From the IMG/VR virus record IMGVR_UViG_2627853983_000005: a DNA stretch of 35,939 nt; one strand, 5' to 3'. This DNA comes from a virus (Duplodnaviria > Heunggongvirae > Uroviricota > Caudoviricetes). The stretch's first letter is position 1. Every line of letters begins with the position of its first letter. The notes under the pieces were generated by a model. That model worked only from the letters and a program-made list of their open reading frames with translations. It was not told the DNA's origin and ran no database searches. Made by a program: the position numbers and the translations under genes. Positions 6,297-13,970 of the stretch are shown piece after piece.

Positions 6297-6453
6297 AGCT
6301 TCAGCCCCTTGTATCCGTTAAATGATTCGGCAACAATCATCACCCACCACGCGCGTAATCTCACCCCTGCGCCGTTCTCCCGCCACGGCGACAACAAAAA
6401 GCAGTAACCCCCTCCGCACGCACATGCGACCATGCCGCACAGGGAGGGAGCAG

Positions 6454-7563
6454 ATGACCGACACCACCATGCAATTGCTCAGTCAGGGCACAGACCCCGT
6501 GAAAATGCCGGATTTTGATATTCTCGCGGAGGGTAAAACGCTGTCAGGCGTGGCAGAGCGCCTGATGAGCCTGTCACTGACCGACAACCGGGGATTTGAG
6601 GCGGACCAGCTCACCATCACGCTGGATGATGCGGATGGTCAGTTGCAGCTACCGCCACGGGGCGCGCGCCTGACGGTTCTCATTGGCTGGAAAGGAGAAC
6701 CGCTGACAGAAAAAGGCACTTACATTGTTGATGAAATCGCTCACGAAGGACCGCCGGACAGGCTGACTGTTTCAGCCAGAAGCGCAGATTTTCGGGATGA
6801 ATTTAACGTTAAACGTGAGGTGTCCTGGCATGATGTGACCGTTGAGCGTGTGGTATCCGCCATCGCTCATCGGTATGGTCTGAAACCGCAAATCAGCGAA
6901 ATGCTGATGGATATCGAAATCGACCACGCCGACCAGACCGAAGAAAGCGACATGTCCTTCCTTACGCGCATGGCGGAAATGCTGGGCGCAATCACCACGG
7001 TAAAAAGCGGTAATCTGTTATTCATCATGCCCGGCGGTGGCGTGAACGCACAGGGCCAGCCGTTGCCATCGTTTGCCATCACACGCAGCAGCGGCGATCG
7101 CCATCAGTTCCGCATTGCTGACCGCGAAGCGTATACGGGGGTACGCGCTTACTGGCTTGATCTTAATTACGGGAAAAAGAAAAAAGTCAGCGTGAAACGC
7201 CGTAAACCGCCAAAACCCAAAAAGGAGAAAAGCAGCAGCCGCGAAGGTGATTATATGGAAGGCGCGGAAGGCAATGTGTTTGTGTTACGCAAGACTTATC
7301 AGAACGAGCAGGCAGCAAGACGCGCAGCGGCGGCAAAGTGGCAGCAACTACAACGCGGAGCCGCATCATTCTCCATCACGCTGGCGCGTGGACGTGCAGA
7401 ACTCTACCCCGAAATGCATGGCACGGTAACAGGATTTAAAAGCGAGATTGATAATCAGGACTGGATCATTGCAAAAGCCGAGCACACCATTGATAACAGC
7501 GGTTTTACCACGCAGCTTGAGCTTGAGGCAAAAATCCCGGAATGGATAGCGGAAACAGAGTGA
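6454..7563 (+). CDS. D: Tail/baseplate hub protein gpD (gp27/VgrG-like)
   Basis: ATG at 6454 with GGAGGGAG RBS; 369 aa; immediately upstream of ogr as in P2. ORF track start 6322 lacks an RBS. Confidence 0.85.
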   Translation: MTDTTMQLLSQGTDPVKMPDFDILAEGKTLSGVAERLMSLSLTDNRGFEADQLTITLDDADGQLQLPPRGARLTVLIGWKGEPLTEKGTYIVDEIAHEGPPDRLTVSARSADFRDEFNVKREVSWHDVTVERVVSAIAHRYGLKPQISEMLMDIEIDHADQTEESDMSFLTRMAEMLGAITTVKSGNLLFIMPGGGVNAQGQPLPSFAITRSSGDRHQFRIADREAYTGVRAYWLDLNYGKKKKVSVKRRKPPKPKKEKSSSREGDYMEGAEGNVFVLRKTYQNEQAARRAAAAKWQQLQRGAASFSITLARGRAELYPEMHGTVTGFKSEIDNQDWIIAKAEHTIDNSGFTTQLELEAKIPEWIAETE

Positions 7564-7603: not shown

Positions 7604-7864
7604 ATGTTCCGTTGTCCGCTTTGTGGCGCATCTGCCCGTATCCGCACCAGTCGTCCGGAAAATGATTCAAACACCGTGCGGCAAAAGTATTACCAGTGTA
7701 ACAATCTGGAATGCGGCGTATGCTTCTCAACACTGGAAGCTTTCCATAAATTCACATCAAAACACGCCTCCGGCGTTCACTCTTCAGAAGGTATCCCGTG
7801 GCATGATCTGCCAGCTTCACACAGGGGAAACAATCAGATGAGTTTGCCTTTATCTCAGAATTAA
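7604..7864 (+). CDS. ogr: Late gene transcriptional activator, Ogr/Delta zinc-finger family
   Basis: MFRCPLCGASARIRTS...YYQCNNLECGVCF: C-x2-C ... C-x4-C zinc finger; position after D as in P2. Confidence 0.85.
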   Translation: MFRCPLCGASARIRTSRPENDSNTVRQKYYQCNNLECGVCFSTLEAFHKFTSKHASGVHSSEGIPWHDLPASHRGNNQMSLPLSQN

Positions 7865-7952
7865 CAGGCAGAATTGCCGGAGTAACAAAAAAGCGATAGA
7901 TTACGTGCGGGTGCCTTTCGGCTGATGGTCGGAGGGAATACCCGAAGGCCAG

Positions 7953-8138
7953 ATGTGGAAAGGCCCCGAGTCAACTTTAACGTTAACCCGAGGCCCTAAC
8001 CATCTACCCTCAGCAAGTGATAGGTTAGCGCCTCCCCGAAAAAGGAGCAAGCGCTATGTCGCAAAAATCGCTTACGGCCATCACATTCTGCGTGACGGCA
8101 ATCCTCATCATCTGGATGCTGCACGGTTCGCTGTGTGA
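7953..8138 (+). CDS. mok-like overlapping reading frame of hok locus (tentative)
   Basis: 61-codon ORF starting upstream of and overlapping hok in another frame, as mok does in hok/sok loci. Confidence 0.3.
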   Translation: MWKGPESTLTLTRGPNHLPSASDRLAPPRKRSKRYVAKIAYGHHILRDGNPHHLDAARFAV

Positions 8139-8196
8139 AATACGGATGAGTTTCTGGGGAGCGGAGTTTGCGGCGTTCTTACAGTGTAAGCAGTAA
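8056..8196 (+). CDS. hok: Hok/Gef-family type I toxin (small membrane peptide)
   Basis: 46 aa MSQKSLTAITFCVTAILIIWMLHGSLCEIRMSFWGAEFAAFLQCKQ: N-terminal TM helix, SLCEIR and AAF motifs of Hok/Gef; AAGGAG RBS 8 nt upstream; below ORF-track size cut-off. Confidence 0.75.
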   Translation: MSQKSLTAITFCVTAILIIWMLHGSLCEIRMSFWGAEFAAFLQCKQ

Positions 8197-8289
8197 GGAA
8201 ACCGCGACGGGGAAGGCAACTTCCCCGTCAATCGGTTGCCAGGGTAAAGGTCGAAAAGGCACCCTATTTCCAGTTGACGTGAACAACAA

Positions 8290-8322
8290 GCCCGCAGCGT
8301 AAAAACTGCGGGTTTTCTTTTT
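8290..8322 (+). terminator. Rho-independent terminator ending hok/ogr transcript
   Basis: Stem GCCCGCAG/CTGCGGGT with 8-nt loop followed by TTTCTTTTT. Confidence 0.6.
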
Positions 8323-8356
8323 GGTTCCCTCACTCATGAGGACACCAAAAAACAAA

Positions 8357-8385
8357 GCCCACAGCATAGAAGCTGTGGGCTTTTT
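8357..8385. terminator. Second hairpin terminator, bidirectional
   Basis: 9-bp stem GCCCACAGC/GCTGTGGGC followed by TTTTT; A-run on the other side. Confidence 0.55.
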
Positions 8386-8395
8386 GCATTCAAAG

Positions 8396-8590
8396 ATGGA
8401 CGTTATATGGACACTTAAAAATAAAATCCATTTATTTTCAAATGATTAAACCTCTACTTAAAGCGCCCGCAGGCGCTTTAACGTTTCTTGCCCCTCCTGA
8501 TGATTTACTTATTTTTCAACGAATAAGCCAAAACAGGGGGAACAAATTAACACAAATTATAACTAATCGATGGACAGTTTATGGACACTT
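8396..8590. other. Putative attP region with Int arm-type direct repeats
   Basis: ATGGACGTTATATGGACACTT (8396-8416) and ATGGACAGTTTATGGACACTT (8570-8590) flank an AT-rich stretch and a GCGCC hairpin (8460-8479); lies at int 3' end where P2 attP sits. Confidence 0.4.
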
Positions 8591-9570
8591 TCAGCCAGCG
8601 GATTAAAGTTGATCGCGTCCAGTAAAAAGTCCGGCGAAAAATGAGCGTACGTCATTGTTTGCTGAATCGTTGCGTGCCCCAGGATTCGTTGCAACGTAAC
8701 AATATTTCCGCCATTCATCATAAAGTGTGTGGCAAATGTATGACGCATGACATGCGTAGCCTGCCCCTTCGGCAAATCCGGTTTCACCTCCTGAAGAATC
8801 TCCCGGAACTTCAGATAATCAACCTGATACAATAACCCCGTTCGACGGGTTTTAATCAGAGGCACGACCGAATCCGCCACAGGAACCGAACGGGATTTTC
8901 CGTTTTTGGTGTTAAAGAACGTCACCCGGTTGCCAACGATATGCTCTCCACGTAGTTCCGATGCTTCACTCCATCGGGCACCAGTAGAAAGACACAGAAT
9001 GGCAACACGACGCACATCACCCTCCAGTCGCTCAAGAAGCCGTTCAATCTCATCATCAGAAAGAAAGGCCATCTCTGTGTTCTGAACTTTCAGTTTTCGT
9101 ATACCGCGTACAGGGTTCGCGTTGTGAAAGACCTCAGCTTCAATCAGCACCGTGAACATGGTAGACAGTACGCATAAGTCACGATTAATACTGGACGGCA
9201 TTAATCCGGCCTGTAATTTCTCTGACCGATATTCAAGCATAAATTTTCGCGTCATCTGACTGGCGCGAGGATCTCCCATTTCACGAACAACCTTCCCTAG
9301 CCTAACCCTGTAGCTATCCCCGTAAGCCTGATTACGCCCATCAAGCATCCACCACGCATCAAGCAGCTCTGATAATCGCCGCTGATCAGCTGGCTTAGCC
9401 TGCCATGGCTTGTCATGAAAGTTCTGTAACACATACTTCTCAAACTCCTGAGCCTTTGATTTCAGGGCAAAGATTTTTCGAATCCGCTTTCCTTCCGCCC
9501 CCTGCGGTCTGACATCGACCTGATAACGTCCGTCTTTGAGTTGCTTAATCGACATGATTAGCCCCTCCAA
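8563..9570 (-). CDS. int: Tyrosine integrase, P2-type
   Basis: 335 aa with C-terminal catalytic region (...ATHVMRHTFATHF...LGHATIQQTMTYAH); adjacent to C repressor as in P2. Confidence 0.9.
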   Translation of the reverse strand: MEGLIMSIKQLKDGRYQVDVRPQGAEGKRIRKIFALKSKAQEFEKYVLQNFHDKPWQAKPADQRRLSELLDAWWMLDGRNQAYGDSYRVRLGKVVREMGDPRASQMTRKFMLEYRSEKLQAGLMPSSINRDLCVLSTMFTVLIEAEVFHNANPVRGIRKLKVQNTEMAFLSDDEIERLLERLEGDVRRVAILCLSTGARWSEASELRGEHIVGNRVTFFNTKNGKSRSVPVADSVVPLIKTRRTGLLYQVDYLKFREILQEVKPDLPKGQATHVMRHTFATHFMMNGGNIVTLQRILGHATIQQTMTYAHFSPDFLLDAINFNPLAESVHKLSID

Positions 9571-13648: not shown

Positions 13649-13970
13649 GAAACCAGAGCATGCACACACAAAAAAACCGCTTGCCATGCCGCAATCAGTC
13701 AGGTTACATTTCCGCTGCACCTCATAAAACGGGTGCCGGGTTTCGCAGCCTGCTGACTACACAAGCGCACAACCGCGCCAGCGGTTTTTTTGTGCGTACT
13801 GTATTGCCACGTTTTTTTCGCGTCAGAATTATGGCGGGGCGTACGGGGCCGACTTCGGTCGGGCCGGGTTCTTGTGTAGCCGGTACTGCGAACCTCGTAC
13901 GTCTCGCCACCCACAGTTTCGCAGCTCTGGATGGTGAGTTTTCACAACTTACTACACAAGGGGCCACACC

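What the first reader, a model, noticed from the sequence alone, without database searches (positions are those of the whole stretch)
7870..8330. hok/mok/sok-type type I toxin-antitoxin locus between ogr and attP
A 46-aa peptide (8056-8196) has the Hok/Gef signature: N-terminal TM helix, SLCEIR and AAF motifs, strong RBS. A mok-like overlapping frame (7953-8138) starts upstream. A 9-bp perfect stem (8206-8229) and a terminator (8290-8322) lie in the 3' region, fitting the folded hok mRNA architecture. The antisense Sok RNA should be encoded on the minus strand around 7940-8050 but cannot be delimited by eye. Post-segregational killing loci are plasmid hallmarks and are not part of canonical P2.
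Basis: partly seen in the sequence, partly recalled or inferred. Interest (0 to 1): 0.6.

Follow-up and report, generated by a model that had tools for sequence, protein, structure and literature searches.

The report
Hok/Sok toxin–antitoxin cassette in P2-like phage
The region is a real hok/sok-type RNA-controlled toxin–antitoxin cassette at the right end of a P2-like phage; it is very common and already annotated in E. coli, and its one unusual point is that its whole subfamily lacks the 'mok' leader gene that the classical system needs.

Summary
The 46-aa ORF at 8056-8196 passes Pfam's Hok/Gef threshold. The leader at 7909-8069 matches Rfam's hok-leader model (E 3e-8, below the gathering score). 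The predicted 414-nt mRNA closes by 5'/3' (tac/fbi) pairing. The classical alternative pairings hold up in 48 homologues. A Sok-like antisense gene (about 8014 to 7955, minus strand) has a conserved promoter and hairpin.

The locus is ordinary. It is 100% identical in more than 230 complete E. coli genomes and related in 1756 of 5426, where it is annotated 'Hok/Gef family protein'. It also occurs in P88-like phages and, unannotated, downstream of lom in Stx phages.

The 'mok-like' ORF 7953-8138 exists but is not homologous to mok. It reaches the hok ribosome-binding site in only 13 of the 63 relatives that keep its ATG. None of 74-75 unique loci has a start codon at the canonical mok position, and all 75 carry an in-frame stop 9-39 nt upstream of hok. 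This HokA-like 46-aa subfamily therefore appears mok-less.

How hok translation is switched on without mok is unresolved; my structural-switch idea was not supported by ensemble folding. The biological role (prophage addiction, abortive infection or lysis help) is inferred, not shown.

The parts
7874..7902 (+). hok promoter: -35 TTGCCG (7874-7879), 17-nt spacer, -10 TAGATT (7897-7902)
   Evidence: Read from the sequence. Both hexamers and the spacing are conserved in relatives from other contexts (alignment). It falls below the strict consensus scan (8 of 12 matches).
7909..8322 (+). Predicted full-length hok mRNA (414 nt), from the invariant 5' GGGUGCC to the terminator U-tract
   Evidence: MFE -172.6 kcal/mol, z -6.35. 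Rfam RF01794 matches 7909-8069 in the sense orientation, 42.8 bits, E 3.4e-8. 86.8% of cells are paired in 48 homologues, against 39-47% for the slid controls.
7909..7923 (+). tac element (5' end). Pairs with fbi in the full-length RNA and with ucb in the 3'-truncated RNA.
   Evidence: Pair partners. tac/fbi helix: 86.7% paired, 3 compensatory pairs. tac/ucb helix: 96.3% paired, 3 compensatory pairs.
7958..7967 (+). ucb (upstream complementary box), GAAAGGCCCC
7955..8014 (-). Predicted Sok antisense RNA (about 59 nt; ends +/- 3-4 nt): variable 5' single-stranded tail, 16-bp hairpin, then UUUCC
   Evidence: Fold -33.7 kcal/mol, z -5.37. All 45 distinct homologous sequences fold the same way, with covarying apical stems. 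Ends were placed by analogy with the annotated sokC of K-12.
8022..8050 (-). Sok promoter: -35 TTGCTC (reverse complement of 8045-8050, overlapping the hok SD), 17-nt spacer, -10 TAACCT (reverse complement of 8022-8027)
   Evidence: Homologous in position to the R1-type TTGCGC-17-TATCCT. The block AGGTTAGCGCCTC is nearly invariant in 48 loci. It falls below the consensus scan threshold.
7990..7993 (+). 'mok-SD'-like GAGG box, retained without a start codon. Pairs with ucb (full-length) or dcb (truncated).
8026..8035 (+). dcb / anti-SD segment UAGCGCCUCC. Contains the TAG (8026-8028) that closes the hok frame upstream.
   Evidence: In the full-length fold it pairs with the hok SD and start region. 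The two helices are 99.3% and 90.6% paired in 48 loci, and the base changes are of the GC-to-GU type.
8043..8047 (+). hok Shine-Dalgarno AGGAG
   Evidence: Sequence.
8056..8196 (+). hok toxin gene: 46 aa, one N-terminal transmembrane helix, SLCEIR and AEFAAFLQCKQ motifs
   Evidence: Pfam HOK_GEF 29.9 bits against a cut-off of 22. 43% identical to K-12 HokA. All relatives are 46-48 aa and median dN/dS is 0.27. Annotated as WP_000078916.1 'Hok/Gef family protein'.
7953..8138 (+).
8206..8229 (+). 3'-UTR stem-loop (10 bp, loop GCAA). By analogy with R1 this is the stop point for 3' trimming.
   Evidence: 99.5% paired, compensatory changes in 5 of 9 pairs. The role in 3' processing is inferred from the R1 model (PMC9841398).
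8248..8264 (+). fbi (fold-back inhibition) element AGGUCGAAAAGGCACCC. Homology between cassettes from different contexts ends just after it.
8288..8322 (+). Rho-independent terminator. It is the first one downstream of ogr, so it probably also ends ogr and late-operon transcripts.
   Evidence: P2 has its ogr terminator directly after ogr.
8455..8479 (.). Right-hand limit of the shared phage/host sequence (attP core region, at the serS terminator hairpin); only the 8479 end was determined, and the 8455 start is approximate.
   Evidence: Ungapped identity with lysogen L001 ends at 8479.

Best explanation
This is a self-contained hok/sok-family type I toxin-antitoxin cassette, a 'moron' with its own promoter. 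It sits between ogr and attP of a P88-like (Xuanwuvirus, P2-like) phage.

**Shown in silico.**
- A weak constitutive promoter gives a roughly 414-nt mRNA.
- The mRNA's 5' end (tac) pairs with a 3' box (fbi). This closed form hides the Sok target and pairs the hok ribosome-binding site with an upstream anti-SD segment.
- The minus strand encodes a roughly 59-nt Sok RNA complementary to leader positions 7955-8014.

**Inferred from the R1 paradigm.**
- Slow 3' trimming removes fbi. tac then switches to ucb, and the leader refolds into the Sok-target hairpin.
- While the prophage is present, unstable Sok pairs with this form and the duplex is destroyed by RNase III.
- When Sok synthesis stops, the stable mRNA pool is translated. 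Possible triggers are prophage loss, host transcription shut-off by another phage, or induction with late read-through from ogr.
- The 46-aa Hok peptide inserts into the inner membrane and depolarises or lyses the cell.

**Difference from R1, hokC and hokW.** This HokA-like 46-aa subfamily has no conserved mok leader ORF, so hok initiation must be controlled without mok coupling. How is not resolved.

**Biological pay-off (my rough weighting, all inferred).** Prophage or remnant addiction about 40%, abortive infection against other phages about 30%, help with lysis on induction about 30%.
For: - **Toxin family.** Pfam HOK_GEF is above its cut-off. The peptide is HokA-like.
- **Leader.** It matches Rfam RF01794 in the sense orientation. 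The same model hits hokC and R1-type loci on the hok strand.
- **Fold.** The full-length fold has tac/fbi closure, z -6.35. The truncated fold switches to tac/ucb and SD-box/dcb.
- **Conservation of both folds.** They are 87-90% paired in 48 homologues, against about 40-47% for the slid controls. Compensatory changes occur in tac/fbi, tac/ucb, the long-range helix that hides the Sok-tail target (7 of 14 pairs) and the 3' hairpin.
- **Sok.** Its promoter block and hairpin are conserved in 45 distinct variants.
- **Coding selection.** The ORF length is constant and dN/dS is 0.27.
- **Absence of mok.**, with positive controls.
- **Context.** ogr lies immediately upstream and co-oriented in 36 of 79 loci, and lom in 15 of 79. 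There is no terminator between ogr and hok.
- **Experimental precedent in a phage.** hokW-sokW of Sp5 (PMC8621323).
- **R1 mechanism.** PMC9841398.
Against: - No expression, toxicity or RNA data exist for this locus or its subfamily in what I could search.
- Both promoters fall below a strict sigma-70 consensus scan.
- Rfam (42.8 against 59) and the NCBIfam HokA model (34 against 89) are below their curated cut-offs.
[quoted passage not shown] A mok-less locus could therefore be poorly translated.
- The window itself does carry an ORF (7953-8138) that could serve as a mok.
- My proposed mok-independent switch was not supported. The ensemble accessibility of the hok SD is the same in the full-length, truncated and Sok-blocked states (0.45, 0.43, 0.45).
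Confidence: 0.78

Rival explanations
1. A canonical hok/mok/sok locus. The ORF 7953-8138 is a functional mok. Sok blocks its initiation, and hok is translated only by coupling to it.
For: The ORF exists, has a GAAGG 4 nt upstream of its ATG and runs across the hok RBS. The predicted 3' end of Sok reaches the ATG at 7953-7955. An ATG at this position is present in 63 of 75 relatives. mok translation is essential in R1 (PMC9841398).
Against: - Only 13 of the 63 relatives with that ATG have an ORF that reaches the hok RBS. In the rest it stops after 1-29 codons.
- Close relatives at 91-94% identity lose the frame while keeping hok intact.
- Salmonella, Klebsiella and Citrobacter members lack the ATG.
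- The start is about 50 nt upstream of the mok start of R1, hokC and hokW, inside a conserved RNA helix that by itself explains its conservation.
Confidence: 0.14
2. A decayed, inactive hok relic, like most chromosomal hok loci of E. coli K-12, carried passively at the prophage end.
For: There is no mok. The promoters are weak by consensus. The locus is often found in degraded prophage remnants. The K-12 loci hokA and hokC are flanked or interrupted by IS elements.
Against: The ORF is intact at 46-48 aa in all 75 unique loci and median dN/dS is 0.27. Every RNA element keeps its pairing, with compensatory changes. The cassette has spread into unrelated phage contexts and been amplified to three tandem copies. 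42 of 45 Hok homologues tested elsewhere were toxic (bioRxiv 10.1101/2025.08.07.668861).
Confidence: 0.06
3. Primarily a late-expressed lysis accessory (holin-like) rather than an addiction module. Read-through from the D-ogr late transcript makes 5'-extended hok RNA that cannot form the tac/fbi lock and also interferes with the convergent Sok promoter, so Hok helps lysis at induction.
For: There is no terminator between ogr and hok, whereas P2 has one directly after ogr. The cassette sits co-oriented at the distal end of late operons in two phage families. hokW-sokW of Sp5 raises phage release about two-fold after induction (PMC8621323).
Against: The cassette keeps its own promoter, the full fold-back lock and the Sok gene, none of which a late gene would need. 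It persists in remnants that can no longer lyse. This is a rival about the cassette's role, not about what it is.
Confidence: 0.3

Closest known systems
hok/mok/sok (parB) of plasmid R1, the paradigm type I toxin-antitoxin system
   Same: Hok/Gef-family membrane peptide. The mRNA has tac/fbi 5'-3' closure, ucb and dcb alternative pairings, a 3' stem-loop and a terminator. The antisense Sok gene has its promoter placed the same way: the -10 lies in the AGG(T/A)TAGC block and the -35 overlaps the hok SD.
   Different: There is no mok ORF at the homologous position: ATG is replaced by ATC and an in-frame TAG follows. The toxin is 46 aa rather than 52, with about 28% identity. The Rfam leader model scores 42.8 bits, against 87 for an R1-type locus. 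The setting is a phage rather than a plasmid.
hokA of E. coli K-12 (NCBIfam NF007290)
   Same: Closest characterised toxin: 43% identity, with the same ...W(M/I)..SLCE...AAFL.CK... C-terminal pattern including the second cysteine.
   Different: It scores 34 bits against an equivalog cut-off of 89, so it is not a HokA orthologue. K-12 hokA has an annotated in-frame mokA and is disrupted by IS150.
hokW-sokW of Stx2 phage Sp5/933W (Takada et al. 2021, PMC8621323)
   Same: A hok/sok system carried by a functional temperate phage. It was shown experimentally to be a type I TA system and to increase phage release after induction.
   Different: It is a different locus and subfamily: a 51-aa toxin with a 70-codon in-frame Mok. 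The window's relative in Sp5/933W is a second, unannotated cassette downstream of lom, about 83% identical in DNA.
Identical or near-identical annotated loci: WP_000078916.1 in E. coli chromosomes; 'MokW-like host killing' genes of phages P88, P884B11, 500465-2 and Chuche
   Same: The same cassette in the same position after ogr, 91-100% identical in DNA.
   Different: Only the CDS is annotated, and the label MokW is a misnomer. The Sok RNA and the mRNA elements are not annotated.
tisB/istR-1 (ribosome standby control of a type I toxin)
   Same: The antisense RNA binds well upstream of the toxin RBS rather than over it. An SD-like leader element without an ORF could act as a standby site. This comparison is from my own knowledge of that system and is a lead only.
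   Different: There is no sequence relationship. A standby role for GAGG 7990-7993 is untested.

Membership tests
Hok/Gef toxin family (Pfam PF01848) | Peptide matches the family HMM above the curated gathering score | tested here: met
   29.9 bits against a cut-off of 22, E 4.1e-7, covering profile positions 5-42 of 42.
Hok/Gef toxin family (Pfam PF01848) | Peptide of about 50 aa with one N-terminal transmembrane helix and the conserved L-C-E core | tested here: met
   46 aa. The hydrophobic stretch is LTAITFCVTAILIIWML, followed by SLCEIR. C27 and E28 are invariant in the alignment with R1 Hok and HokW.
Hok/Gef toxin family (Pfam PF01848) | Membrane-depolarising toxicity on expression | not testable with these tools
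   An experiment is needed. 42 of 45 diverse homologues were toxic in bioRxiv 10.1101/2025.08.07.668861, but I could not confirm that this cluster was among them.
HokA equivalog (NCBIfam NF007290) | Score above the equivalog cut-off | tested here: not met
   34 bits against a cut-off of 89. The toxin is HokA-like but belongs to a separate subfamily.
hok/sok type I TA locus (R1 paradigm) | Long-range 5'/3' pairing (tac/fbi) closing the full-length mRNA | tested here: met
   7909-7923 pairs with 8249-8264 in the MFE. 86.7% paired with 3 compensatory pairs in 48 homologues.
hok/sok type I TA locus (R1 paradigm) | Alternative tac/ucb and SD-box/dcb pairings in the 3'-truncated mRNA | tested here: met
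   Predicted for truncations ending at 8235-8255. The two helices are 96.3% and 87.6% paired, each with compensatory changes.
hok/sok type I TA locus (R1 paradigm) | cis-encoded antisense Sok RNA with its own promoter, complementary to the leader | tested here: inconclusive
   The promoter hexamers are homologous in position to R1 and conserved. The hairpin plus 5' tail is predicted in all 45 variants. The promoter is below the consensus scan and no transcript data exist.
hok/sok type I TA locus (R1 paradigm) | mok leader ORF starting behind the leader SD box and translated across the hok RBS (translational coupling) | tested here: not met
   None of 74 loci has ATG, GTG or TTG in the canonical start window. 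37 of 74 have no open frame from there to the hok RBS. All 75 have an in-frame stop 9-39 nt upstream of hok. The controls R1, hokC and hokW all have the ORF.
hok/sok type I TA locus (R1 paradigm) | Slow 3' processing of the mRNA and RNase III cleavage of the Sok duplex | not testable with these tools
   Requires northern blots or RNA-seq in wild-type and rnc strains.
Rfam RF01794 'sok' (in fact the hok mRNA leader, sense strand) | Covariance-model score at or above the gathering score | tested here: not met
   42.8 bits against 59, although E is 3.4e-8 locally. Other members of the subfamily score 33-52 bits, while hokC scores 118 and an R1-type locus 87.

The most novel reading that the evidence does not exclude
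A large HokA-like subfamily of hok/sok cassettes, present in about a third of complete E. coli genomes, in Salmonella, and in both P2-like and Stx phages, has dispensed with mok altogether. It keeps the 'mok SD' box only as an RNA-switch or ribosome-standby element. Hok translation would then be gated directly by mRNA refolding and Sok, contrary to the textbook rule that mok translation is obligatory. The variable Sok 5' tails would let several such cassettes coexist without cross-talk, as in the three tandem copies in Salmonella and the two loci in Sp5.
Probability: 0.45. Interest if true: 0.5.

Novelty: already known. Interest (0 to 1): 0.27.

Why it matters
As a finding it mostly confirms existing annotation. 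hok cassettes in prophages are documented, and this exact gene is already labelled in thousands of records.

It has practical value in three ways:
- It delimits the unannotated parts (promoters, Sok RNA, tac, ucb, dcb, fbi) of a cassette that Rfam's curated threshold misses.
- It shows that 'MokW-like' is a mislabel for this Hok toxin.
- It marks the ogr-attP interval as a cargo site of P2-like phages.

The mok-less architecture could interest type I TA specialists if it has not been reported and is experimentally true. It offers a natural test of whether leader-ORF coupling is really required for Hok expression. It also bears on the Sp5 hokW-sokW deletion phenotypes, because a second hok locus remains in that phage.

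Tried and rejected
1. **Direct anti-SD switch.** I proposed that in the truncated mRNA the GAGG box captures the anti-SD (8030-8034) and frees the hok SD, and that Sok binding reverses this. The MFE of the window shows it. Ensemble accessibilities over 48 homologues do not: SD unpaired probability is 0.45, 0.43 and 0.45, and for the whole RBS 0.31, 0.37 and 0.30. I do not claim it.
2. **Consensus promoter scan.** It found no sigma-70 sites in 7800-8450. The promoters are assigned by positional homology and conservation only.
3. **Rfam at gathering threshold.** It found nothing in the region. The hit appears only with the E-value threshold.
4. **The search for related loci with the single 46-aa peptide.** With an alignment it returned only 7 species-level loci, some from evidently contaminated assemblies.
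5. **Non-AUG mok.** Near-cognate starts (CTG, ATH) in an open frame occur in only 12 of 74 loci, so I rejected this as a conserved solution.
6. **Literature on mok-less hok loci.** I found none in the searchable library. The older subscription papers (Pedersen & Gerdes 1999; Steif & Meyer 2012) could not be read, so I cannot exclude that this is already described.
7. **Structure prediction and fold search.** Not run, as they are uninformative for a 46-aa single-helix peptide.

Full report
**1. What is there**

The window is a P88-like (Xuanwuvirus, P2-like) phage genome. It is 94-96% identical over about 75% of its first 25 kb to Citrobacter phage Shae_phiSM, Xuanwuvirus P884B11 and Escherichia phage P88.

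Around the finding lie:
- gpD, 6322-7563;
- ogr, 7604-7864 (Pfam Ogr_Delta);
- a tyrosine integrase, 8563-9570 on the minus strand.

Ungapped identity with an E. coli lysogen ends at 8479, about 25 nt beyond the serS stop codon of the host, so the attP core lies about there. The finding therefore sits between ogr and attP. In P2 itself that interval is only about 100 bp and holds just the ogr terminator and Int/IHF sites.

**2. The toxin**

- The ORF 8056-8196 encodes MSQKSLTAITFCVTAILIIWMLHGSLCEIRMSFWGAEFAAFLQCKQ. An AGGAG lies 8 nt upstream of its ATG.
- It passes Pfam HOK_GEF: 29.9 bits against a cut-off of 22.
- It is closest to HokA: 43% identity. It scores 34 bits on the NCBIfam HokA model, far below the equivalog cut-off of 89.
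- A database search returns a coherent 46-aa subfamily in E. coli, Shigella, Salmonella and Klebsiella oxytoca, all named 'Hok/Gef family protein' where named.
- Among 43 distinct 46-codon ORFs, median dN/dS is 0.27 at median dS 0.71. This is a conservative figure, because RNA structure also constrains synonymous sites.

**3. The RNA architecture**

*Rfam match.* At gathering thresholds Rfam finds nothing here. A local E-value scan places RF01794 ('sok') at 7909-8069 on the plus strand with 42.8 bits, E 3.4e-8.

That model is really the hok mRNA leader in the sense orientation. It hits hokC of K-12 on the hokC strand (118 bits) and an R1-type locus likewise (87 bits). Members of this subfamily score 33-52 bits (annotation). 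This explains why curated scans miss the subfamily.

*Promoter.* By positional homology the hok promoter is TTGCCG (7874-7879), a 17-nt spacer, then TAGATT (7897-7902). The invariant GGGUGCC start is at 7909.

*Full-length fold.* The 414-nt RNA 7909-8322 folds at -172.6 kcal/mol, z = -6.35. In that fold:
- tac 7909-7923 pairs with fbi 8249-8264;
- ucb 7962-7971 pairs with the SD-like box region 7986-7995;
- the hok SD (8044-8047) and start region (8051-8056) pair with 8026-8035.

*Truncated fold.* RNAs ending at 8235-8255 switch to tac/ucb (7909-7919 with 7958-7967) and GAGGC 7990-7994 with GCCUC 8030-8034. This is the classical hok switch as summarised in PMC9841398.

*Conservation.* I tested both folds on an alignment of 48 non-redundant homologues at 62-92% identity (A3).
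- The full-length structure has 86.8% of cells paired, against 39-47% when partners are slid.
- The truncated structure has 89.8% paired, against 39-45%.
- Compensatory changes occur in tac/fbi (3 pairs) and tac/ucb (3 pairs).
- They also occur in the long-range helix that buries the Sok-tail target (7 of 14 pairs).
- The 3' hairpin 8206-8229 has them in 5 of 9 pairs, and that hairpin is 99.5% paired.

Homology between cassettes from different genomic contexts stops just after fbi. The mobile unit is therefore promoter-to-fbi, and the terminator (8288-8322) belongs to the host context.

**4. Sok**

On the minus strand, TTGCTC (reverse complement of 8045-8050), a 17-nt spacer and TAACCT (reverse complement of 8022-8027) occupy the same places as TTGCGC-17-TATCCT in an R1-type locus. 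The block AGGTTAGCGCCTC is nearly invariant.

By analogy with the annotated sokC, the RNA runs from about 8014 to about 7955. It folds into a 5' single-stranded tail plus a 16-bp hairpin at -33.7 kcal/mol, z -5.37.

All 45 distinct homologous versions fold the same way. The hairpin base is conserved, the apical stem covaries, and the 5' tail is highly variable. That is what a specificity determinant should look like.

Both promoters are below the strict consensus scan, and no transcript data are available. Sok is therefore predicted, not shown.

**5. mok**

In R1-type, hokC and hokW loci an ATG at -57, just behind GAGGC, opens a 69-71-codon ORF that runs through hok. Here the homologous triplet is ATC (8002-8004), and a TAG at 8026-8028 closes the hok frame.

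Across 74-75 unique loci gathered from E. coli genomes, Salmonella contigs and IMG/VR:
- All 75 have an in-frame stop 9-39 nt upstream of hok, with no start codon in between.
- None of 74 has ATG, GTG or TTG in the canonical start window.
- 37 of 74 have no open frame at all from that window to the hok RBS.
- 40 of 75 have no leader ORF of any kind reaching the RBS.

Its ATG lies inside the conserved ucb-side helix, and the ORF reaches the hok RBS in only 13 of the 63 loci that keep the ATG. In the others it stops after 1-29 codons, including relatives 91-94% identical to the window. I conclude that the subfamily has no conserved mok and that the window's ORF is probably fortuitous. I cannot exclude that it is used in this particular phage.

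**6. How hok is switched on without mok is not resolved**

The window's MFE suggested a mechanism. In the truncated RNA the retained GAGG box captures the anti-SD and frees the hok SD, and Sok would reverse this.

Partition-function accessibilities over 48 homologues do not support it:

| State | SD unpaired probability | Whole RBS unpaired probability |
|---|---|---|
| Full-length | 0.45 | 0.31 |
| Truncated | 0.43 | 0.37 |
| Truncated, Sok target blocked | 0.45 | 0.30 |

Two options remain, both inferences:
- Sok acts mainly by triggering RNase III decay.
- The GAGG box acts as a standby site, as in tisB/istR-1.

**7. Distribution and context**

- The 541-bp region is 100% identical in more than 230 complete E. 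coli genomes. Related sequence is present in 1756 of 5426, almost always chromosomal and always annotated 'Hok/Gef family protein'.
- In phage records it is 91-94% identical in Chuche, P88, P884B11, 500465-2 and PhiR44_2, where it is often labelled 'MokW-like host killing'.
- It is about 83% identical to an unannotated locus downstream of lom in 933W, VT2-Sakai and many Stx phages.
- The experimentally studied hokW-sokW of Sp5 (PMC8621323) is a different locus in the same phage: orf74, a 51-aa Hok with a 70-codon Mok.
- Of 79 loci, 36 have ogr immediately upstream in the same orientation and 15 have lom.
- P2-like prophages carrying ogr-hok sit at serS, ihfA, the tRNA-Leu region and flk. Some loci retain only ogr+hok or a truncated gpD. 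One Salmonella lineage has three tandem cassettes after ogr.
- A recent survey reports hok in 5% of Enterobacteriaceae phages and a four-fold enrichment in prophages. It explicitly left mok and Sok unanalysed (bioRxiv 10.1101/2025.08.07.668861).

**8. Verdict**

The identification as a hok/sok type I TA locus is right and the 'mok' assignment is not. The locus is already known and annotated, so overall interest is low.

The residual interest is the apparent absence of mok from a very widespread subfamily. I could not find this described, but I also could not read the older subscription literature.

The biological role is inferred only. The candidates are addiction of the prophage end, abortive infection, or help with lysis through late read-through, given that no terminator separates ogr from hok.

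Noticed in passing
window 13717-13791 and 13827-13914 (+): Rfam gathering-level hits to isrK (65.2 bits) and C4 antisense RNA (83.2 bits), side by side. This is a P1/P7/P4-type antisense-RNA immunity module inside a P2-like (P88-like) genome.
   Followed up: no
window 8455-8479: Identity with an E. coli lysogen junction next to serS ends at 8479. The shared core includes the hairpin AAAGCGCCCGCAGGCGCTTT, apparently the serS terminator. The phage therefore integrates just downstream of serS and rebuilds its terminator.
   Followed up: partly
window 8354-8383: A second, bidirectional terminator-like hairpin (12 bp, AAAGCCCACAGC...GCTGTGGGCTTT) lies between the hok terminator and attP. Its purpose is unknown.
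   Followed up: no
window 7865-7873, compared with P2 (L149 1766-1789): There is no terminator between the ogr stop and the hok promoter, whereas P2 has its ogr/F-operon terminator 10 nt after ogr. Late transcripts probably read into hok and across the convergent Sok promoter.
   Followed up: partly
L025 and L026 (Salmonella enterica contigs), hok ORFs at 1505, 2003 and 2501: gpD-ogr is followed by three tandem hok cassettes spaced exactly 498 bp apart. Their toxins are diverged and their predicted Sok 5' tails differ.
   Followed up: partly
L005, L006, L001, L007 (E. coli chromosomes): In 4 of the 6 sampled E. coli chromosomal loci with ogr upstream of hok, the prophage is a remnant. Only ogr+hok remain beside ihfA or beside yecA/tRNA-Leu, or gpD is truncated. 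This is compatible with hok resisting deletion, but the sample is tiny.
   Followed up: no
L004 20170-20310 (VT2-Sakai/Sp5, AP000363.1 about 44.7 kb); also 933W under L0129: An intact hok cassette of this 46-aa subfamily lies downstream of lom. It is unannotated in the original records and is not mentioned in the hokW-sokW study, whose deletion mutant therefore still carries one hok locus.
   Followed up: partly
L003 2563-3505 (phage Chuche); L007 2077-3010: Relatives carry a com-like regulator plus a DNA methyltransferase between hok and the attachment site. The ogr-att interval therefore behaves as a variable cargo site.
   Followed up: no
Public phage records NC_026014.1, NC_049391.1, NC_049343.1, NC_029120.1, PP925824.1: The 46-aa Hok-family toxin gene is labelled 'MokW-like host killing'. 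Mok is the leader peptide, not the toxin, and this subfamily has no mok, so the label is misleading.
   Followed up: yes
L013, L014, L017 (genome-contig hits titled Planococcaceae MAG, Vagococcus sp., Xanthomonas pisi): Near-identical E. coli-type hok loci appear in assemblies of unrelated taxa. Contamination of those assemblies is the most likely cause.
   Followed up: no
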